Shown here one piece after another: positions 18 to 32,000 of a stretch of 32,000 nucleotides of DNA. The stretch spans positions 30,001-62,000 of the forward strand of contig JAIRQE010000018.1 of assembly GCA_031256725.1 (NCBI GenBank). Reading direction: 5' to 3'. Each line of letters starts with the position of its first letter. Within the stretch, counting starts at the first letter, position 1. This DNA comes from Propionibacteriaceae bacterium (GTDB lineage: Bacteria; Actinomycetota; Actinomycetes; Propionibacteriales; Propionibacteriaceae). The position numbers and the translations under genes were made by a program. The notes beneath the pieces are model-generated. The model was not told where the DNA came from. It made no database searches and saw only the letters and a list, made by a program, of their open reading frames with translations.

Positions 18-2600
18 ATGACAAACGTAGACACACTGACTGTTGGAGATAAGACCTACACCTATCACAATGTTGCTGAGATAGCAGCGCGGGTGCCTTT
101 GACTGTTGCAATTGTTGCGGAGAACCTCATCAGGAATGGGGCCGACCCAGCCCAAATTGAGGCACTGGCATCATGGTCTCCACACTCAGACCCCACCCAA
201 GAGGTGGAGTACTCTCCAGCGCGAGTGGTCATGCAGGATTTCACGGGTGTTCCCTGTGTGGTGGATCTTGCCACCATCCGCGAGGCGGTACAAGACCTTG
301 GAGGAGATCCCGAATTGGTGAACCCGAGGGTGCCAACAGAGCTTGTTATCGATCATTCTGTGATTGCAGATGAGTTCGGATCTTCGCTGGCTTTTGCAAA
401 GAATGTGGATTGGGAATTCCAGCGCAACCAGGAACGATATGAGTTCCTGAAGTGGGGACAGCAGGCTTTTAGGAATTTCCGCGTGGTACCACCGGGTACT
501 GGTATCGTCCATCAGGTCAATATCGAGCATCTGGCCCGTGTTGTCATGGTGGAGGGCGATCTGGCTTTTCCTGATACCTGTGTGGGTACAGACTCCCACA
601 CGACAATGGTCAATGGGCTTGGTGTCCTTGGATGGGGTGTTGGTGGGATTGAAGCCGAGGCAGCAATGCTGGGGCAACCCATTTCTATGACCTTGCCTTT
701 TGTTGTCGGCGTGGAGCTCACAGGTGATCTTCAACCAGGTGTTACCTCTACTGATCTTGTCTTGATGATTGCTGAGCGCTTGCGTCACCATGGGGTCGTT
801 GGGAAGTTTGTGGAATTCTATGGGGACTCCGTCGAAAGGCTCTCGGTTGAGACGCGGGCAACAATCTCCAACATGAGCCCCGAATATGGGTCTACGGCTT
901 GTTTATTTCCCATCGATTCTCGTACCATCGACTATCTTGGTCTGACTGGTCGCGATGCTCATCAACTGGAGTTGGTGGAGGCCTATGCGAAGGCCCAAGG
1001 GTTCTGGGGGGACCGTACTGTCGCTTATTCAGAAAATCTCACCATTGACCTGAGCCAAGCATGTCCTTCAATCGCAGGCCCCAAGCGTCCCCAGGATCGG
1101 ATCAACCTATCCGAATCTAAGACCTCCTTCAGAACCGCTCTCAAAGACGCTGGACATGAGACTGCCACTGTAGCGACCGATTCGGGGCAGCTCTCTAGTG
1201 GAATGGTTGCCATTGCTTCGATCACGAGTTGTACCAATACATCGAATCCTAGGGTCATGATCGCTGCTGGTCTTCTTGCCCAAAAAGCCGCCACTCGGGG
1301 CTTGAGTTCCAAGCCTTGGGTGAAGACAACCCTGGCACCAGGATCCCAGGTGGTGACCGACTACCTCAATAAAGCTGGGCTGACTCCCAGTCTGGAGGCC
1401 TTGGGTTTCTACCTCGTTGGGTACGGTTGTGTCACCTGTATCGGTAATGCAGGACCTGTCACAGGTGATGTGAAGACCGCTGTGGATCAAGGTGTCATAG
1501 CCACCGCAGTACTCTCAGGAAATCGTAACTTTGAAGGCCGAATCTCCCCAGATGTACGCATGAACTACCTGGCAAGCCCACCCTTGGTTGTTGCCTATGC
1601 TCTAGCTGGTACCATGGACATTGATTTCGACACTGAGGCTCTTGGTGTGGACACCCACGGCGTTGAGGTCTTCTTGAAAGACCTATGGCCTACAGAGGAT
1701 GAGATCACAGCCGCTGTGGATGCCGCTGTGGATGCCCAGATGTTTTCAAACAGGTATGCTGAAGTCTTCACTGGTGCGCAGCGTTGGCGTGACCTTGTCA
1801 GCCCCACAACCTCGCAGTACGACTGGTCAGAGTCCACCTATATTCGCAGGGCGCCCTATTTCGATTCAATGTCCGACCAGTTGACACCGGTCACCAATAT
1901 CGAGCAGGCCAGAATCCTGCTCATTCTGGGAGATTCGGTGACCACAGATCACATCTCCCCAGCCGGTTCCATCAAGCCAGATAGTCCCGCTGGACGTTAT
2001 CTAGCCTCACAGGGGGTGGCACCAGCCGACTTCAACTCCTATGGGTCACGCCGCGGAAACCACGAAGTCATGATGAGAGGTACCTTCGCGAATATCCGTT
2101 TGCGTAACCTGATGGTTCCAGGTACCGAAGGAGGATTCACTCAGGATTACACCCAGGATGATTCCTCGGTCGTCTCCGTTTTTGATGCTGCCCAATCCTA
2201 TGAGGCCGCCCACACTCCACTCGTGGTCTTCGCGGGCAAGGAGTATGGTTCCGGGTCGAGTCGTGACTGGGCTGCCAAGGGTGCTGCCTTGTTAGGGGTA
2301 CGAGCAGTCATCGCTCAAAGCTTTGAGAGAATCCACCGCTCGAATCTCGTGGGCATGGGAATCCTTCCTCTGCAATTCCTTGAAGGGGAGACTGCTGAAA
2401 CCTGGGGGCTTACAGGTGAGGAAAAGATCACCATTGAGGGCCTCACAGATTCGGACACTCTTCCAGATACTGTGACGGTTGTTGTTGATGGTCGTCACCA
2501 TAAGGCAGTACTAAGAGTCGACACACCCACCGAGGAGAGGTACATCCGTCATGGTGGGATACTCCAATACCAGGCAAGAGTTCTAGCTGGGTTGGCATGA
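18..2600 (+). CDS. acn: aconitate hydratase (aconitase)
   Basis: 860-aa ORF with aconitase signatures in the translation ([32 protein letters not shown] Fe-S ligand regions, C-terminal [11 protein letters not shown] swivel domain). AAGGAAGGA Shine-Dalgarno lies just upstream of ATG 18. Confidence 0.95.
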
Positions 2601-8678: not shown

Positions 8679-8856
8679 TGTCGTCCTTTCTCTCGATGAC
8701 TTCAACGGCGCCATTGCCGGAGGGCCATGCCTCCTCCAATGGTGACCGACCCAGGTTCACTTTCCCCCACTAACCATGCTTGGCGCAAGTTGGACGTCCA
8801 CATAGTGAGATACGGCCCAGCATATGATAAAAGCGTCATCATCTCCAGATCGTGGT

Positions 8857-8886
8857 TTGGACCGAAAGGTCAACAGATGCTAGGGT
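8857..8886 (+). promoter_or_regulatory. candidate sigma-A promoter for tRNA-Tyr (TTGGAC-18 nt-TAGGGT)
   Basis: The hexamers are read directly from the sequence. The -10 ends 17 nt before the mature tRNA 5' end. Confidence 0.3.
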
Positions 8887-8903
8887 TATGCGCTGGACGC
8901 CAT

Positions 8904-8986
8904 GGCGGGTTGCCCGAGCGGCCAATGGGAGCAGACTGTAAATCTGTCGGCGAATGCCTACGGAGGTTCGAATCCTTCACCCGCCA
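8904..8986 (+). tRNA. tRNA-Tyr (GTA)
   Basis: 83-nt cloverleaf folded by hand: acceptor GGCGGGT/ACCCGCC, anticodon loop CT-GTA-AA, long variable arm, GGTTCGAATCC T-arm. It closely resembles E. coli tRNA-Tyr. Confidence 0.9.
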
Positions 8987-9011
8987 CCTGGTTGATGTTT
9001 TGAGCATCAGT

Positions 9012-9053
9012 ACTCCTGAATTCTTCCAGAAAGAGTTCAGGAGTTTTCCATTT
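9012..9053 (+). terminator. intrinsic terminator after tRNA-Tyr
   Basis: 14-bp stem (9012-9025 pairs with 9031-9044, one G-U), CCAGA loop, then TTTCCATTT. Confidence 0.7.
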
Positions 9054-9135
9054 CACTCCAGAATATGCGGTACACGCCGCGATATGGGGCTGAGCTTGAA
9101 GTCCAGGGTGGTTCTCATGTATTGTGGACGCGCTT

Positions 9136-9208
9136 GCCCCTATAGCTCAGTCGGTAGAGCGTTTCCATGGTAAGGAAAAGGTCTGCAGTTCGATTCTGCA
9201 TGGGGGCT
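9136..9208 (+). tRNA. tRNA-Thr (GGT)
   Basis: 73-nt cloverleaf: acceptor GCCCCTA/TGGGGGC, TAGCTCAGTCGGTAGAGC D-arm, anticodon loop AT-GGT-AA, GTTCGATTC T-loop. Confidence 0.9.
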
Positions 9209-9240
9209 CGTTGTCTGACTGCGGAGACGTAGTCAGAATT

Positions 9241-9314
9241 AGCGGGATAGCTCAGGTGGTCAGAGCGAACGACTCATAATCGTTAGGTCGCGGGTTCAAG
9301 TCCCGCTCTCGCTA
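9241..9314 (+). tRNA. tRNA-Met (CAT), elongator type
   Basis: 74-nt cloverleaf: acceptor AGCGGGA/TCTCGCT, anticodon loop CT-CAT-AA. It lacks the three G-C pairs of an initiator anticodon stem. tRNA-Ile2 (lysidine) cannot be excluded by eye. The Tyr/Thr/Met-rpmG order matches mycobacteria. Confidence 0.8.
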
Positions 9315-9341
9315 CGTCAATACGATCGTTTGGAGGATTTG

Positions 9342-20615: not shown

Positions 20616-20855
20616 ATGGGGCGCGGCCGTCAAAAGGCAAAGCAGACAAAAGTCGCTCGCGAACTCAAATATCGACCGATATCGACCGATTTCGCTTCGC
20701 TTGAAGAAGAACTCAGGACGAGCTCGGGTGGAGAGATCCCACCCGCGTATGCCGATCTTGCGGATGAATATGCCCATGAAGATCACGGCTTCGATGATGA
20801 GATGGATGAATCTAACGAGTATGAGGCTTACCTTCCAGATGACGAAGACGAATAG
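20616..20855 (+). CDS. DUF3073 domain-containing protein
   Basis: ORF 20598..20855 trimmed to ATG 20616. The N-terminus MGRGRQKAKQTKVARELKY is the hallmark of DUF3073, with an acidic C-terminus. The position next to purM is conserved in Actinomycetota. Confidence 0.8.
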   Translation: MGRGRQKAKQTKVARELKYRPISTDFASLEEELRTSSGGEIPPAYADLADEYAHEDHGFDDEMDESNEYEAYLPDDEDE

Positions 20856-22041: not shown

Positions 22042-22065
22042 TTTTGCAGCATGTGGGAATGGGTA

Positions 22066-22095
22066 TTGACGTGATGTTCTAGTCCTCTCTACACT
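22066..22095 (+). promoter_or_regulatory. candidate promoter TTGACG-18 nt-TACACT for the islet operon
   Basis: Hexamers read directly from the sequence. It lies 31 nt upstream of ATG 22127 in AT-rich DNA. Confidence 0.35.
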
Positions 22096-22159
22096 CAAAA
22101 ATATCTTGATAATTAAAAAGGGGATTATGAAGAGAAAGATAGCAGGGGTGCTTATGGCT

Positions 22160-22191
22160 GTCTTGCTGGTGACAAGTCTTGCTGGTGACAA
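22160..22191 (+). repeat. perfect tandem duplication 2 x GTCTTGCTGGTGACAA (16 nt)
   Basis: 22160-22175 and 22176-22191 are identical. 16 is not a multiple of 3. Confidence 0.95.
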
Positions 22192-22253
22192 CAGGGCTGA
22201 ATGTGAGGGTTCCAGGGATTGTTCCTGTGGCTGAGGCCGCTACCATGGTATGG

Positions 22254-22700
22254 AAATATACTGGTGGCTATTACTATTTCTATATTGACAATGTGATGCA
22301 AAAGGGTTGGGCGTCCAACGGTTATAATTGGTATTATTTAGATCCTTCGACGGGACGTTGTCAGTTTGGATGGAAGAAGATTTCCGGGGATTGGTATTAC
22401 CTCATTCCTGAGAATGACAGTGGTCGCGCTGCAATGGGGTGGCTGAAAATCGCTGGAGGATGGTACTACTTTGATCCGACTAATGGCTCGGGTCGAATGC
22501 AAATGGGTTGGAAGAAAATCAATGGAGCGTGGTTTTATCTCAACCCTGTGAATGAGTCGGGCGCGATGATGACTGGGTGGCAGTGGCTGTACGACAAGGG
22601 TGGAGAGCATTGGTTCTACTTCCGGCCTGGGGACGATGGAAGAATGGTCGGTGGAAATCAAGTTATCGACGGAATTGAGTACCGGTTCGGTACTTTGGGG
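22254..22700 (+). repeat. array of ~7 degenerate ~20-aa cell-wall-binding (choline/glucan-binding type) repeats, at protein level
   Basis: Recurrent pattern GW-x3-5-G-x-WYY[LF]-x-P-x3-G-x-M in the translation. Confidence 0.8.
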
Positions 22701-23149
22701 AGTGCAACCGAGGGACAGTTGTCGTTGATTCAAACCTGGGATTTGGTGGATGCTGGTAAACACTTAGACGTGGATGGAAACAGCAAATACATGTCCTATA
22801 TTTGGAAAGGGATGAATATATGGAACGGGTATAAGCCGGGAGTTATCCGACGTGACTCCTTGACTGTGGCTCAAGATCTTTATGTGACCGATATCGACCA
22901 GCAAAATATGGCATCTGGTGCGACATCTTCAGATGGAAAGCTTAAACTCAATGTTTACTATTTGAAAAATGAGACCGAGAATACAAAAACACATATTGCC
23001 ACCCATGAGTTGGGGCATGCTCTTGGACTGGCTCATACTCCCACATCAGGCAATATGATGTGGGGATGGATATCTGGTGTTATCCTTCTCTCCCAGGACG
23101 ACAAGACTGCGTATGACCGCGCATACAAGAATTACTAAAGGGGACGACA

Positions 23150-23803
23150 ATGAAAAAACGCGCTGCTGTTCTTATGGGCTGTGTTATTAGCACTCTCGTG
23201 ATAGCTGGAGTCTATTTTGTGGCTATTCATGGAGAGAGTCCCAAAGAAATTCTTTCCTCGGAGATGGAGGTGGATGTCTCTACTCTTCCTATTGATCGTA
23301 TTCGAGCATCCTATGTCATTGACGTTGGTAACAAGAATGAAGTTGCTGGTCTGGCAGATTATGTCTTTGCTGGTCGGGTGATCAGTAATAATAAGACGAT
23401 ATATGAAGATGTGATAGAGATGGAGACTGAGGAGGGTGGAACCAGACTCGTTGGTTCTCCTTATACTGAGTACACCATTGAGGTTGTAGATAATATCAAG
23501 GGAAAGTTGAAGAAGAACAAGCCGATCACCATGCTTAAAGATGGTGGTGTGAGCATGGACTTGGATGCGGTCTTCTTGTATGAAGCTGATGAACTTCCTG
23601 AGCCTGGTCGATACTATATTTTTATCGGTTTCGCTCAGTCTGATGGTGCTCTTCTTATTTCTGGCCCAGGGAGTAACCTTCTTCTTACTGCTAAAAACAA
23701 GCAGGAGATCGTGTCCTCGGATGAATATAAAGCGTATAAGAAGGCTGTTCAAAATGAGGTGAAGTTCGATCGCGAGCGATACAAAGCTACTGAACAAGAA
23801 TAG
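23150..23803 (+). CDS. membrane-anchored extracytoplasmic protein of unknown function (candidate protease partner or inhibitor)
   Basis: 217-aa ORF starting 11 nt after the protease stop, with an AGGGGA SD in the gap. N-terminal MKKR plus a hydrophobic anchor (AAVLMGCVISTLVIAGVYFVAI). No family recognised. Low GC like the protease gene. Confidence 0.7.
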   Translation: MKKRAAVLMGCVISTLVIAGVYFVAIHGESPKEILSSEMEVDVSTLPIDRIRASYVIDVGNKNEVAGLADYVFAGRVISNNKTIYEDVIEMETEEGGTRLVGSPYTEYTIEVVDNIKGKLKKNKPITMLKDGGVSMDLDAVFLYEADELPEPGRYYIFIGFAQSDGALLISGPGSNLLLTAKNKQEIVSSDEYKAYKKAVQNEVKFDRERYKATEQE

Positions 23804-23807
23804 ATTA

Positions 23808-24017
23808 ATGAATATCTGGAATGGCTATAAATCTGGTGTGGTCCGAAAAGACTCTGCTTCCGTGGTCTGATGAATCCATATGAAAGGAGGGTCGTATTGA
23901 AGCCGTATATTTTTGGTGAGAATCGCAGTACACACGAGCGCGCCTTTTTGTTCTTGCTGGATACCATCTATCGACCTTAGTCGTGAAGCTGCTCTTATGA
24001 GGGTCGCGCTCGGCTGA
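23808..24017 (+). pseudogene. decayed paralogous fragment of the metalloprotease catalytic domain
   Basis: 23808-23870 translates to MNIWNGYKSGVVRKDSASVV*, compared with MNIWNGYKPGVIRRDSLTVA in the intact gene at 22812 (40/60 nt identical). Further matches occur in shifted frames (..LKPYIFGEN..THE.., WIPSIDLSRE vs WISGVILLSQD). The HExxHxxGxxH segment is deleted. Confidence 0.65.
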
Positions 24018-24069
24018 GGCTGGGCTGTGGCCCTTCGTGTTTTTATATCGACTTTGGAGGGAGGAAAAG

Positions 24070-24531
24070 ATGTCAGAAGTCATTATCTTCAATGCTGGCG
24101 GGCAACAGGTGTTGGGTACAGTCACTGTTCGTCACGCGGCAGGAATGTTGTACCGTCGTGTAGCGCTGGTCCACGAACCCGAACCCGGTATGACCTTCGG
24201 GCCTTACCCCCTACCAAGGTCGGTGGTATTAGTGCGCTGGATCTACACGGCATGGGTGTACGAAACGAGGCGTCAACCTGTGTGTTCGCGTACTGCCATC
24301 CTTCGTAGAGACCACTACCGATGTGCCTACTGCTGGCAAACGGGTACGACCATGGACCACATTCTTCCCAAGTCAAGGGGAGGGAGTACCTCATGGATAA
24401 ACTGTGTTGCTGCTTGTCAAGAGTGTAATGGCCTCAAGGCTGACAAGACGCCTGCCGAAGCCGGAATGAGATTGGATATCCATCCTCAAGCTCCTCTGGC
24501 TTCCCAGTTAGTACCGAGACGGTATCGCTAG
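24070..24531 (+). CDS. HNH endonuclease family protein (conserved actinobacterial type)
   Basis: ORF 24037..24531 trimmed to ATG 24070 (GGAGGGAGG SD upstream). HNH/zinc motif HYRCAYC...TMDHILPKSRGG...NCVAACQECNGLKADK. Confidence 0.85.
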   Translation: MSEVIIFNAGGQQVLGTVTVRHAAGMLYRRVALVHEPEPGMTFGPYPLPRSVVLVRWIYTAWVYETRRQPVCSRTAILRRDHYRCAYCWQTGTTMDHILPKSRGGSTSWINCVAACQECNGLKADKTPAEAGMRLDIHPQAPLASQLVPRRYR

Positions 24532-27947: not shown

Positions 27948-28020
27948 GGTCCCCATCGTCTAGTGGTCTAGGACGCCGCCCTTTCACGGCGGTAACACGG
28001 GTTCGAACCCCGTTGGGGAT
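27948..28020 (+). tRNA. tRNA-Glu (TTC)
   Basis: 73-nt cloverleaf very similar to E. coli tRNA-Glu (GTCCCC...CGCCCTTTCACGGCG...GGTTCGAACCCCGT). It has a G1-U72 wobble. Confidence 0.9.
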
Positions 28021-28111
28021 GCTAGGCGTCACAAACGTGATGTCGAAGCCAGTCGGATTGCCTCGAAGACTTCCGTTAGGATATAGTACTTGAGGCCGGT
28101 CCACCGGTACT

Positions 28112-28185
28112 GGCCCCGTGGCGCAGTTGGTTAGCGCGCTTGCCTGTCACGCAAGAGGTCGTGGGTTCAAGTCCCATCGGGGTCG
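28112..28185 (+). tRNA. tRNA-Asp (GTC)
   Basis: 74-nt cloverleaf: acceptor GGCCCCG/CGGGGTC, anticodon loop CT-GTC-AC, GGTTCAAGTCC T-arm. Confidence 0.9.
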
Positions 28186-28210
28186 CAAAGAGTCAGCACA
28201 TGGCTCAATT

Positions 28211-28284
28211 GGCCAGGTAGCTCAGTCGGTAGTAGCGCATCCCTGAAAAGGATGAGGTCGTCGGTTCGATCCCGACCTTGGCCA
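28211..28284 (+). tRNA. tRNA-Phe (GAA)
   Basis: 74-nt cloverleaf: acceptor GGCCAGG/CTTGGCC, anticodon loop CT-GAA-AA, GGTTCGATCC T-arm. The D-arm has one extra nucleotide (GCTCAGTCGGTAGTAGC). Confidence 0.85.
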
Positions 28285-28373
28285 CAGACTGACTTCCACA
28301 ATAAAACTCCTAGTGAACACTTATTTATATAGTTATCATTTCTAGGGGATCGTGACTTGCCTAAGATGGCACT

Positions 28374-29638: not shown

Positions 29639-32000
29639 GTGGCCAAGCCCCGCGTCCACGAGCTTGCGAAAGAGCTCGGACTCGATAGTAAGACCGTTCT
29701 TGCTGCCCTCACAGAGATGGGGGAGTATGTGCGTTCTGCGTCCTCGACGATAGAACCCCCTGTTGCGCGGCGTTTACGTGAACGTTATGCCAAGACACCA
29801 GACCCGGAACCTGTGACGCCCCCTGTTGCAGAAGTCAAAGCCCCACCGCCTCCTCCCGAGCCCACGCCGGTTGAGGAGCCTGCCCCGAAGGCAAAGAGGT
29901 CCTCTGCAAAGAAGGCTGTACCACCGGTTGATTCAATACCAGTTGAGGTGGAGGTACCAGCCCCAGAGCCCACAATCGTTGAGCCTCCAGTGGTGGAGAC
30001 TCCCGCTCCAGAGCCTCAATCTGATGAGGATAGGCCAGCGATCCCTAAGCCTTCCCAGATGATTCCGCGCCCGATTCCGCGCCCTCAGCCTGGTCCAGGA
30101 GCACGTCGTCCTGGTACCCCACGCCCTGGCAACAATCCCTACGCCTCTTCTCAAGGTATGGGAGTACGCCGTCCCCAGCGTGAAGAGGGTGGTCGTCCCG
30201 CGGGTACTGGTCCGCGTGCTCCACGCCCAGGTGCTGGTGGTGCAGGTGCACCAAGAACAGGTACCCCAGGTGGAGGTCCGCGCCAGTCAACTCCAGGAAT
30301 GGGTACAAACGCCCCAGGCCAAACAGGGCGCCCACCTCGTGGTCGTGGTTCGGCCCCGAGCTTCGGTGGTCCATCTCAAGGTCCAGGCGCACCCCAGGGT
30401 CGCGGTGGACGTGGTGGTCGCGCCGGATCGGGTACCCAAGGTGCTTTCGGACGCCAAGGTGGCCCGACCCGCAAATCAAAGAAGTCGAAGAAGCTACGTC
30501 GTCAAGAGTTCGACGAGATGGAAGCACCAACCATCTCGGGTGTACGCATTCGTCAAGGTGAGGGTCAAACCATCCGTCTGCCTCGTGGCTCTTCGTTGAC
30601 AGATCTGGCTGAGAAGATCTCGGTGGATCCCGCTCAACTTGTCCAGGTACTCTTCAATATGGGTGAGATGTTGACCGCAACCCAGTCGGTCTCCGATGAC
30701 ACACTGGAGATCCTCGGTTCGGAACTCAACTATGACATCCAGGTCGTCTCCCCTGAGGATGAGGACCGCGAATTGCTCATGGCCTTCGACCTCGACTTCG
30801 GTGAGAACCTCGCTGAGGATGAGGATCTGGTCGTACGTCCCCCCATCGTCACTGTCATGGGCCACGTTGACCACGGTAAAACGAAGCTCCTTGATGCCTT
30901 CCGACGTACCAATGTGGTCGCGGGTGAGGCCGGTGGAATCACCCAGGCTATCGGCGCCTATCAGGTACACACCAAGGTTTCTGATGAGGAACGAGTCGTC
31001 ACCTTCATTGATACCCCTGGTCACGAAGCTTTTACCGCTATGCGTGTCCGTGGTGCGCAGGTCACTGATATTGCGGTGCTCGTTGTGGCTGCTGATGATG
31101 GTGTGATGCCTCAGACCGTTGAGGCTCTCAACCACGCCAAGGCGGCTGATGTACCCATCGTTGTTGCAGTGAACAAGATTGATAAGGAAGGCGCAGATCC
31201 GACGAAGGTCCGCGGTCAGTTGAGCGAATATGGTCTCGTACCTGACACCTATGGCGGCGATACCATGTTCGTGGATGTGTCCGCTGTGACACGAGAGGGG
31301 CTTGAGGATCTTCTCACTGCCATCGTGCTTACTGCTGATGCTGAATTGGATCTTCGTGTCGACTCGGATATGCCTGCTCAAGGTGTGGCGATTGAAGCCC
31401 ATCTTGACCGTGGACGTGGTCCAGTTGCGACCGCAATTGTTCAACGAGGCACCCTCCAGATCGGTGACTCGATCGTGGCAGGAAACTCTTATGGTCGCGT
31501 ACGCGCCCTCGTCAACGATCATGGGGAGATGGTGGATCAAGCACCACCATCAACACCAGTACAGGTCCTCGGTTTGACTGCCGTCCCTGGCGCTGGTGAC
31601 AACTTCCTGATTGTGGACGACGAACGTACTGCTCGCCAGATTGCCGAAAAGAGAGAGGCCCGAATGAGGGCTGCTGCTCTGGCTAAGGGAACCAAGCGCC
31701 GTACCCTTGAAGATCTGTTCAAAGAGATGGAGAAGGGCGAAGAACTCAACCTCATCCTCAAGGGCGATTCTGCTGGTTCTGTGGAAGCCCTCGAAGATGC
31801 GCTCGTTTCCATTGATGTGGGTGAAGAGGTCAATCTCAGGATCATCGACCGCGGTGTGGGTGCGATCACCGAGACCAACGTCACCTTGGCTGCTGCCTCG
31901 AATGCCATCATCATTGGCTTCCATGTACGCGCTCAGGGTCATGCCACACAGTTGGCCAACCAAGAGGGTGTCGATATCCGGTACTACTCGATCATCTACC
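29639..32000 (+). CDS. infB: translation initiation factor IF-2 (3' end beyond the window)
   Basis: GTG 29639 has an AAGGAG SD at 29629-29634. N-terminus [31 protein letters not shown], a Pro/Gly/Arg-rich linker, then the G-domain [29 protein letters not shown]. It is open to the window end, which is presumably why the ORF track does not list it. Confidence 0.95.

What the first reader, a model, noticed from the sequence alone, without database searches (positions are those of the whole stretch)
22127..22234. Perfect 16-bp tandem duplication uncouples the signal peptide from a secreted metalloprotease (frameshift or possible on/off switch)
GTCTTGCTGGTGACAA occurs twice in direct tandem (22160-22175 and 22176-22191). 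Read from ATG 22127, the sequence gives MKRKIAGVLMAVLLVTSLAGDNRAECEGSRDCSCG and then stops at 22232-22234. The 319-codon protease ORF continues in the +1 frame from 22179. Deleting one repeat copy restores a single ORF with a textbook signal peptide, MKRKIAGVLMAVLLVTTGLNVRVPGIVPVAEA|ATMVWKY... As sequenced, the protease has lost its export signal. A perfect short tandem duplication is the kind of lesion that arises and reverts by replication slippage. It could therefore be a fresh inactivating mutation, a reversible switch, or an assembly or sequencing artefact.
Basis: seen in the sequence. Interest (0 to 1): 0.7.

Follow-up and report, generated by a model that had tools for sequence, protein, structure and literature searches.

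The report
Frameshifting 16-bp duplication in protease gene
A perfect 16-base tandem duplication really does cut the export signal off a cell-wall-binding metalloprotease gene in an uncultured Propionibacteriaceae genome, but it looks like an ordinary recent knock-out mutation and nothing shows that it is a switch.

Summary
GTCTTGCTGGTGACAA occurs twice in perfect tandem at 22160-22191. The ATG-22127 reading frame stops at 22232-22234, and the protease frame continues in +1 to 23138. Deleting one copy gives a 331-aa protein with three parts: a 32-aa Sec-type signal peptide, choline-binding repeats and an M10-like metzincin domain (HELGHALGLAH). That N-terminus aligns without gaps to the signal peptides of the nearest full-length homologues.

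The window comes from a Propionibacteriaceae MAG. A separate re-assembly of run SRR14710887 (Logan) carries the same two-copy allele, so an assembler artefact is unlikely.

No one-copy allele and no conspecific genome is on record, so copy-number variation cannot be tested here. The tract has only two copies and is absent from homologues, and the rest of the gene and its downstream partner gene are intact. The best reading is a recent frameshift that abolishes export of an accessory, probably horizontally acquired protease. It could in principle revert by slippage, as in pneumococcal cap3A, but nothing shows that it does.

Three public annotation pipelines call the gene intact, each with a different internal start.

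The side observation is more interesting. The conserved downstream partner is sometimes fused to the protease and has a predicted TIMP/NTR-like fold.

The parts
22066..22095 (+). Promoter-like site (TTGACG, 18-nt spacer, TACACT) upstream of the protease gene
   Evidence: This is a consensus match only (9 of 12), and the count in the region is close to the shuffle expectation. Its position in the 85-bp, 36% GC intergenic region fits a promoter for the cassette.
22118..22124 (+). Shine-Dalgarno-like AAGGGGA, 2 nt upstream of ATG 22127
   Evidence: It has the strongest predicted anti-SD duplex of all candidate starts (-8.4 kcal/mol) and is close to the partner gene's AAAGGGGA (-8.7). This marks ATG 22127 as the true start.
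22127..22234 (+). Truncated ORF as sequenced: signal-peptide n- and h-regions, then 19 out-of-frame codons (SLAGDNRAECEGSRDCSCG), then TGA
22160..22175 (+). Tandem duplication, copy 1 (GTCTTGCTGGTGACAA)
22176..22191 (+). Tandem duplication, copy 2, identical to copy 1. Removing either copy restores the ORF.
22179..23138 (+). Protease reading frame (+1 relative to ATG 22127), 319 codons from TTG 22179. The public annotations start at TTG 22179 (IMG), GTG 22227 (PGAP, 303 aa) and ATG 22245 (Logan, 297 aa).
22233..22247 (+). GAGG overlapping the TGA stop, then an 8-nt spacer and ATG 22245. This is a possible termination-reinitiation site that would give a leaderless, cytoplasmic protease (inferred, not shown).
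   Evidence: Sequence. Duplex energy -5.6 kcal/mol.
22239..22710 (+). Choline-binding / cell-wall-binding repeat domain of the mature protein. The end coordinate is approximate.
   Evidence: Pfam PF19127 scores 66 bits against a cutoff of 27, and PF01473 also matches. By sequence it matches CbpJ, CbpF, LytA and TcdA CROPs. The model matches CbpJ/CbpF with E 7e-15 and rmsd 1.6-2.4 over 161 columns.
22725..23138 (+). Minimal metzincin catalytic domain (M10/matrixin-like). The zinc motif HELGHALGLAH lies at 23004-23036 and is followed by a conserved Met.
   Evidence: Pfam PF00413 scores 30.9 bits against a cutoff of 24. MMP-1 catalytic domains match by sequence at E about 1e-3. Residues H254, E255 and H258 are invariant and M272 nearly invariant across 12 homologues.
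23150..23803 (+). Conserved partner gene (217 aa) with an N-terminal membrane or signal anchor, no family assignment and a predicted TIMP/NTR-like beta-barrel
   Evidence: no family. (40%-identical partner directly downstream of the homologous protease in Clostridiales strain 16). (fused to the protease in P0013/P0014). (model and fold matches).

Best explanation
A recent spontaneous 16-bp tandem duplication, a replication-slippage type of lesion, arose in codons 12-17 of the signal peptide of a secreted metzincin protease that carries cell-wall-binding repeats. Because 16 is not a multiple of 3, ribosomes starting at the true start (ATG 22127) read 19 wrong codons and stop at 22232-22234. The repeat domain and the catalytic domain are then no longer joined to an export signal. 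Any protein made from an internal start (TTG 22179, GTG 22227 or ATG 22245) would stay in the cytoplasm, away from its presumed place of action at the cell wall. In practice the gene is a young pseudogene (loss of export) within a two-gene accessory cassette, protease plus partner, that was probably acquired horizontally. Shown here: the duplication, the frameshift, the in-silico repair, the domain identities, the presence of signal peptides in homologues, and reproduction of the allele in a second assembly. Inferred: that the lesion is recent, that it abolishes function, and that it arose by slippage.
For: The duplication is perfect and exceeds chance. The one-copy reconstruction gives a 331-aa ORF with an n-region MKRK, a hydrophobic core with a maximum Kyte-Doolittle 10-residue mean of 2.94, and an AEA|A cleavage-type motif. 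None of the downstream starts has a positively charged n-region followed by a strongly hydrophobic core; their maxima are 1.50, 0.44 and 0.12. ATG 22127 has the best SD and a promoter-like site upstream. The reconstructed 32-aa leader aligns without gaps to the leaders of the two nearest full-length homologues: P0060 MKRRFILIVTAVALAMSGIGGMVATAAPAAQA|A and P0003 (true start of P0060 seen). The complete, non-truncated homologues start with signal-peptide-like leaders. The remaining 319 codons, the zinc motif and the conserved Met are intact, and so is the partner gene. The other roughly 28 genes in the window show no sign of truncation: every one with a Pfam match is covered end to end, so the assembly is not generally frameshift-prone. 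A separate Logan assembly of SRR14710887 carries the identical two-copy sequence and differs from the window at only 1 of 10,761 bases, elsewhere. With k=31 (my knowledge of Logan's settings, not from a tool) a 32-bp array is resolved unambiguously. The cassette is accessory: it has lower GC (0.43-0.49 against about 0.52) and is absent from the syntenic site in the closest relatives, which carry a SIR2 gene there.
Against: No reads were available, so I cannot say whether the two-copy allele is fixed or coexists with a one-copy allele in the sampled population. The assemblies give only two consensus sequences, possibly from the same sample. No conspecific genome exists for comparison: the nearest orthologue of the flanking hydrolase is 73% identical. 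The absence of any second lesion fits a very recent mutation, but it fits a lesion that is repeatedly reverted equally well. An SD-like GAGG and ATG 22245 lie 11 nt after the stop codon, so some leaderless protein could still be made. No signal-peptide predictor was available, so the leader was judged only by simple rules and by alignment.
Confidence: 0.8

Rival explanations
1. The duplication is one state of a reversible ON/OFF switch for protease export. It arises and is precisely excised by slipped-strand mispairing, as in the duplication-based phase variation of the pneumococcal capsule genes cap3A, cap8E and tts, and the population holds both states.
For: A perfect head-to-tail duplication is the substrate for precise excision, and excision restores the ORF exactly. 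The gene carries no second lesion. The target is a surface or secreted protein, the usual class for phase variation. There is precedent for reversible intragenic duplications (Waite et al. 2001 and 2003, as summarised in PMC11163986 and PMC4243769). One SNP between the two assemblies hints that the sampled population may not be strictly clonal.
Against: The tract has only two copies and there is no pre-existing repeat tract. Homologues have no repeat at this position. Both assemblies carry the same allele. No one-copy product appears among about 15 billion proteins. Any tandem duplication can in principle revert, so reversibility alone does not make it an evolved switch. From memory, reversion of short (11-20 bp) duplications is rare compared with simple-sequence-repeat contingency loci.
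Confidence: 0.07
2. The duplication is an assembly, library or sequencing artefact and the organism carries a single copy.
For: The source is a metagenome-assembled genome. No reads were inspected. The two assemblies may derive from the same read set.
Against: Two different assembly pipelines give the identical two-copy sequence. De Bruijn assemblers cannot create a junction k-mer that is absent from the reads, and a 32-bp array is resolved unambiguously at k=31 (k value from my own knowledge). The other genes in the window show no sign of truncation, which argues against error-prone data. From my own knowledge, perfect 16-bp duplications are not a typical error of any sequencing platform.
Confidence: 0.05
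3. The two-copy arrangement is functional as it stands. Either a programmed +1 ribosomal frameshift in 22173-22231 joins the signal peptide to the protease, or the protease is meant to be made without a leader from an internal start, as the public annotations imply.
For: The overlap between the two frames (22173-22234) would allow a +1 shift. The SD-like GGTGA before TTG 22179 (-7.2 kcal/mol) and the GAGG before ATG 22245 (-5.6) could support initiation. PGAP, IMG and Logan all call an intact gene.
Against: No homologue has a split ORF; each inspected has a single ORF with a leader. I saw no recognisable slippery or stop-stimulated shift motif in the overlap. The two-ORF layout is fully explained by one perfectly duplicated 16-mer. 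Choline-binding repeat domains act outside the cell. The three annotated starts disagree with one another, and none gives an export signal.
Confidence: 0.04

Closest known systems
Pseudogenes made by short tandem-duplication frameshifts (ordinary slipped-strand indel mutations)
   Same: A perfect short direct duplication whose length is not a multiple of 3 sits inside an ORF. It causes a premature stop and leaves an otherwise intact downstream reading frame.
   Different: Nothing essential differs. The only special point is the position inside the signal peptide, so the catalytic part keeps a long intact ORF that annotation pipelines call as a complete gene.
Duplication-mediated phase variation of the Streptococcus pneumoniae capsule genes cap3A, cap8E and tts (Waite et al. 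2001, 2003; cited through PMC11163986 and PMC4243769)
   Same: A spontaneous perfect tandem duplication within an ORF switches the gene off, and precise loss of one copy switches it on. No pre-existing repeat tract is needed.
   Different: In pneumococcus both states, recurrent independent duplications and measured reversion were demonstrated. Here only one state is seen, in one sample, and no reversion is shown.
Simple-sequence-repeat contingency loci (for example tetranucleotide repeats in Haemophilus and Neisseria surface genes; PMC4235727)
   Same: Frameshifting by change of repeat copy number near the 5' end of a surface or secreted protein gene.
   Different: Those loci carry many copies of 1-8 bp units that are conserved as tracts across strains. 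This is a single duplication of a 16-bp unique sequence, and homologues have no such tract.
Choline-binding modular surface enzymes of Firmicutes (LytA, CbpF, CbpJ, Pce) and bacterial MMP-like metzincins (Pfam M10 matrixin)
   Same: The architecture is signal peptide, then cell-wall-binding repeats, then a catalytic module. The repeat domain matches CbpJ/CbpF and the zinc motif is HEXXHXXGXXH followed by a conserved Met.
   Different: The repeats are N-terminal to a minimal catalytic domain of about 135 aa with no recognisable pro-domain. The host is an actinobacterium. The catalytic domain is only distantly related to MMPs (E about 1e-3 by sequence).

Membership tests
Sec-type (signal peptidase I) signal peptide | Positively charged n-region, hydrophobic h-region of about 10-15 residues, and small residues at -3 and -1 (AXA) before the mature protein | tested here: met
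   The one-copy reconstruction has MKRK, then IAGVLMAVLLVTTGL (maximum Kyte-Doolittle 10-residue mean 2.94), then PVAEA|A. It aligns without gaps to the leaders of P0060 and P0003. This rests on simple rules and alignment; no dedicated predictor was available.
Sec-type (signal peptidase I) signal peptide | The signal peptide is in frame with the passenger protein in the sequence as given | tested here: not met
   The frame shifts after codon 16 and stops at 22232-22234. The three downstream starts lack a charged n-region followed by a hydrophobic core.
Metzincin / Pfam M10 (matrixin-like) metalloprotease | HEXXHXXGXXH zinc-binding motif and a downstream conserved Met | tested here: met
   HELGHALGLAH lies at 23004-23036. 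M272 is nearly invariant and H254, E255 and H258 are invariant across 12 homologues. PF00413 scores 30.9 bits against a cutoff of 24.
Metzincin / Pfam M10 (matrixin-like) metalloprotease | Proteolytic activity | not testable with these tools
   This needs expression and zymography.
Choline-binding / cell-wall-binding repeat proteins | Tandem repeats of about 20 aa with the GW..YYF pattern that form a beta-hairpin solenoid | tested here: met
   PF19127 scores 66 bits against a cutoff of 27. The model matches CbpJ/CbpF with E 7e-15 and rmsd 1.6-2.4.
Simple-sequence-repeat contingency (phase-variable) locus | A tract of many short repeat units that is conserved as a tract in related genes or strains | tested here: not met
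   There are exactly 2.0 copies of a 16-bp unit, and homologous leaders have no repeat.
Simple-sequence-repeat contingency (phase-variable) locus | Copy number varies within or between populations | not testable with these tools
   No reads are available. The two assemblies agree. No conspecific genome and no one-copy product is on record.
cap3A-type reversible intragenic duplication switch | A perfect tandem duplication inside an ORF that inactivates the gene, with precise excision restoring it | tested here: met
   Met in silico only.
cap3A-type reversible intragenic duplication switch | Observed reversion, and recurrent independent duplications in the population | not testable with these tools
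   This needs reads, or culture and reporter assays.
Programmed +1 ribosomal frameshift gene | The two-frame arrangement and the shift site are conserved in homologues | tested here: not met
   The homologues inspected are single ORFs with leaders.
TIMP / NTR-module metalloprotease inhibitors (for the partner gene 23150-23803) | NTR/OB-type beta-barrel fold | tested here: inconclusive
   The model has pLDDT 85.8. The best PDB matches are mostly NTR-type modules (TIMP-1, TIMP-2, the C3/C4 C345C domain, PCOLCE NTR), with generic OB folds appearing lower in the list. E is only 4e-4 to 1e-2 and TM 0.25-0.52.
TIMP / NTR-module metalloprotease inhibitors (for the partner gene 23150-23803) | N-terminal Cys1 that chelates the zinc, conserved disulfides, and a Pfam TIMP or NTR match | tested here: not met
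   No Cys is among the invariant or nearly invariant columns of the 12-member alignment. No member hits a TIMP or NTR Pfam model even at E<=10.

The most novel reading that the evidence does not exclude
The 16-bp duplication is the OFF state of a duplication/excision switch of the cap3A type, operating in an uncultured gut or environmental actinobacterium. It would toggle export of a cell-wall-tethered MMP-like protease. In the OFF state, termination at TGA 22232 and reinitiation at ATG 22245 would keep a leaderless form translated and so keep the downstream TIMP-fold partner expressed. If so, the cassette (metzincin plus TIMP-like partner) would be a bacterial protease/inhibitor pair under stochastic control.
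Probability: 0.06. Interest if true: 0.55.

Novelty: new member of a known kind. Interest (0 to 1): 0.2.

Why it matters
The main consequence is for annotation. PGAP, IMG and Logan each call this gene intact, with three different internal starts (303, 319 and 297 aa), and none flags the frameshift. The deposited 'M57 family metalloprotease' therefore lacks its real N-terminus and should be marked as frameshifted. Biologically it is one more accessory secreted-enzyme gene knocked out by a slippage lesion. It would matter more only if read-level data showed both alleles coexisting. The neighbouring observation has more potential than the duplication itself: a conserved MMP-like protease with a TIMP-fold partner, a pairing found in separate genes and also as a fusion.

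Tried and rejected
I searched for a one-copy allele or an orthologue in four ways. A protein search with the repaired 331-aa sequence found only the frameshifted gene's three gene calls at 100% identity, and the next hit was 42% identical. Scans of genome contigs and metagenome contigs returned only distant relatives. An exact look-up of the PGAP product found no contig. A search with the flanking hydrolase showed no conspecific genome, the best being 73% identical.

A literature search for SRR14710887 found nothing, so the sample's origin is unknown. Waite et al. 2001 and McEllistrem et al. 2007 are not held, so I cite them through reviews.

I rejected a programmed frameshift because homologues are single ORFs and I saw no shift motif in the overlap. 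I rejected the view that the two-copy state is ancestral with a separate leader peptide, because the copies are identical and the repaired leader aligns collinearly with those of homologues.

I checked whether the 10-bp tandem repeat in the DUF3073 gene (20669-20694) is a second frameshift. It is not: the ORF is intact and aligns with orthologues.

The partner gene has no credible match: nothing in Pfam for this protein, only scattered chance-level hits among its homologues at E<=10, one chance-level NCBIfam hit (E 0.074), and only chance-level PDB sequence matches. Only the fold search gave a lead. Rfam found nothing near the site.

Full report
**Observation.** The 16-mer GTCTTGCTGGTGACAA occupies 22160-22175 and is repeated exactly at 22176-22191 (sequence; Tandem Repeats Finder: period 16, 2.0 copies, 100% matches; script). 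The repeat extends in neither direction. In 200 shuffles of the window, no perfect tandem duplication with a unit of 14-20 bp appeared. It is the longest perfect tandem duplication in the 32 kb. From ATG 22127 the frame reads MKRKIAGVLMAVLLVTSLAGDNRAECEGSRDCSCG and stops at TGA 22232-22234. The 319-codon ORF from TTG 22179 to 23138 lies in the +1 frame. Deleting one copy gives a single 331-codon ORF.

**What the gene is.** The repaired protein has three parts.
- A 32-residue leader: MKRK, a hydrophobic core, then PVAEA|A.
- Choline-binding / cell-wall-binding repeats. Pfam PF19127 scores 66 bits against a cutoff of 27. It matches CbpJ, CbpF, LytA and TcdA CROPs by sequence. The predicted structure matches CbpJ/CbpF with E 7e-15 and rmsd 1.6-2.4.
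- A C-terminal minimal metzincin domain of about 135 aa, with HELGHALGLAH at 23004-23036 and a conserved Met. Pfam M10 scores 30.9 bits against a cutoff of 24. The motif residues are invariant across 12 homologues.

ATG 22127 is the real start. It has the strongest SD pairing of all candidate starts (-8.4 kcal/mol, close to the partner gene's -8.7) and a promoter-like site at 22066-22095. None of the downstream starts (TTG 22179, GTG 22227, ATG 22245) gives a charged n-region followed by a hydrophobic core.

**Source and public annotation.** The window is from a Propionibacteriaceae MAG. Its product is deposited as MDR0488885.1, 'M57 family metalloprotease', 303 aa from GTG 22227. IMG aa from TTG 22179, and Logan aa from ATG 22245. 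None of the three flags a frameshift.

**Is the duplication real?** A separate Logan assembly of run SRR14710887 (contig of 18,849 bp, locus L001) carries exactly the same two-copy sequence. Over 10,761 shared bases the two assemblies differ at one position, window 20606. L001 is therefore not a verbatim copy of the MAG contig, yet it agrees at the duplication. A 32-bp array is resolved unambiguously by 31-mers (k value from my own knowledge of Logan). The other genes in the window show no sign of truncation; every one with a Pfam match, including aconitase, DXS, RNase D, PPK2, purF, purM, serA-like and serC-like, is covered end to end. The data are therefore not generally frameshift-prone. 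I rate an artefact at about 5%. I could not establish whether the MAG was built from the same run.

**Which state is ancestral?** The one-copy leader aligns without gaps to the leaders of the two nearest full-length homologues. These are P0060 from another Propionibacteriaceae MAG (MKRRFILIVTAVALAMSGIGGMVATAAPAAQA|AVSYSWAKTGGYWY; start confirmed in the DNA) and P0003. The complete homologues inspected, including the Clostridiales protease in L002, begin with signal-peptide-like leaders. The two copies are identical, and no other lesion is present in the gene or in its partner. One copy is therefore ancestral and the duplication is recent.

**Can the switch idea be tested here?** It cannot.
- The repaired 331-aa product is not on record. 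The only hits at 100% identity are the three gene calls of the frameshifted allele, and the next hit is 42% identical.
- Scans of representative genomes and of JGI metagenomes returned only distant relatives.
- The nearest orthologue of the flanking hydrolase is 73% identical, so no conspecific genome is available.
- The tract has just two units, and homologues have no repeat there.

The closest mechanistic precedent is the reversible intragenic duplication that switches the pneumococcal capsule genes cap3A, cap8E and tts off and on (Waite et al. 2001, 2003, as summarised in PMC11163986 and PMC4243769). That precedent shows such a lesion can revert. It does not show that this one does. I give the switch reading about 6-7%.

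**Other readings.** A programmed +1 frameshift, or an intended leaderless protease, is unlikely. Homologues are single ORFs with leaders, I saw no shift motif in the overlap at 22173-22234, and choline-binding repeat domains act outside the cell. One detail is worth noting. GAGG (22233-22236) overlaps the stop codon, and ATG 22245 follows after 8 nt, so termination-reinitiation could produce a cytoplasmic, leaderless protein of essentially mature sequence. This is inference only.

**Context.** The protease and the downstream 217-aa gene (23150-23803) form a cassette.
- The same pair, with the protease 49% identical and the partner 40% identical (E 7e-58), is adjacent in Clostridiales strain 16.
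- In P0013/P0014 the two are fused into one protein.
- The cassette has lower GC than its surroundings (0.43-0.49 against about 0.52).
- In the closest relatives the syntenic site (DUF3073, hydrolase, then DsbA on the opposite strand) holds a SIR2 gene instead.

The cassette therefore looks like an accessory, horizontally acquired island. Loss of function of such a gene is unremarkable.

**The partner gene.** It has no credible match: nothing in Pfam for this protein, only scattered chance-level hits among its homologues at E<=10, one chance-level NCBIfam hit (E 0.074), and only chance-level PDB sequence matches. Its predicted structure (pLDDT 85.8) gives best PDB matches that are mostly NTR/TIMP-type modules: TIMP-1, TIMP-2 (including complexes with MMPs), the complement C3 C345C domain and PCOLCE NTR. 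The scores are weak (E 4e-4 to 1e-2, TM 0.25-0.52). The family has no conserved cysteine. It therefore lacks the defining Cys1 and disulfides of TIMPs and should not be filed as one. A TIMP-like fold beside an MMP-like protease, conserved and sometimes fused, is still a lead worth following. A literature search did not find it described.

**Verdict.** The feature is real. It is best explained as a recent slippage-type 16-bp duplication that frameshifts the signal peptide and abolishes export of an accessory metalloprotease. My confidence in that is about 0.8. It is a new instance of a well-known kind of lesion, and I score its interest at 0.2. The decisive test is to count one-copy and two-copy junction k-mers in the reads of SRR14710887.

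Noticed in passing
window 23150-23803 (+); L002 6464-7153; P0013/P0014: The 217-aa gene just downstream of the protease is a conserved partner. It is 40% identical to the gene downstream of the homologous protease in Clostridiales strain 16, and it is fused to the protease in P0013/P0014. It matches no family model. Its AlphaFold model (pLDDT 85.8) best matches TIMP-1, TIMP-2 and other NTR modules in the PDB, but weakly (E 4e-4 to 1e-2, TM 0.25-0.52), and it has no conserved Cys. It may be a bacterial TIMP-fold inhibitor or partner of an MMP-like protease.
   Followed up: partly
window 22042-24036; L007 and L008: The protease and partner cassette has lower GC (0.43-0.49, with an upstream intergenic region at 0.365) than its flanks (about 0.52). 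It sits where the closest relatives (hydrolase 64-67% identical) have a SIR2 gene between the alpha/beta hydrolase and DsbA. The window also has an HNH endonuclease gene at 24037-24531 that was not called in those relatives. This looks like an accessory island, with the catalytic domain and partner of Firmicutes type.
   Followed up: partly
window 22179-23138: Three public pipelines annotate the frameshifted gene as intact, each with a different start: PGAP GTG 22227 (303 aa, 'M57 family metalloprotease', MDR0488885.1), IMG TTG 22179 (319 aa) and Logan ATG 22245 (297 aa). None marks a pseudogene.
   Followed up: yes
window 22127-23138; P0060/P0002 (L006 7978-9116); P0003: The protein looks like a mosaic. 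The leader, repeat domain and linker (to about residue 190) are most similar to proteins from other Propionibacteriaceae MAGs (43% and 36% identity), and those proteins end in a different metzincin type (HELGHALxLxD...SLMNH). The catalytic domain here belongs to a family found mostly as short, signal-peptide-bearing proteases in Firmicutes-like contigs (49-56% identity). This suggests a domain swap.
   Followed up: partly
window 20606; L001 3362: This is the only difference between the window and the Logan assembly over 10,761 bp: T in the window (GAAGGATGC) against G in Logan (GAAGGAGGC). It lies in the Shine-Dalgarno region 10 nt upstream of the DUF3073 gene start. It is either a polymorphism in the sampled population or a consensus difference.
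   Followed up: partly
window 20669-20694: A 10-bp tandem repeat (ATATCGACCG, 2.6 copies) lies inside the small DUF3073 gene (20616-20855). The ORF is intact and aligns with orthologues (KYRPISTDF against KYRSVSTDF), so it is not a second frameshift.
   Followed up: yes
window 1710-1736 and 30061-30084: Two further perfect 12-bp tandem duplications. One lies in the aconitase gene and one in an unassigned minus-strand ORF. Their length is a multiple of 3, so they are tolerated as 4-codon repeats.
   Followed up: no
window 8904-9315 and 27949-28285: Two tRNA clusters (Tyr-Thr-Met and Glu-Asp-Phe) fill two of the larger apparent gaps between genes. The mechanical ORF 8727-9173 overlaps tRNA-Tyr and tRNA-Thr and is probably spurious.
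   Followed up: yes
window 22165-22172 and 22181-22188: Each repeat unit contains GCTGGTGA, a 7-of-8 match to the E. coli Chi sequence GCTGGTGG (from my own knowledge). This is probably coincidental, because Chi sequences are lineage-specific.
   Followed up: no
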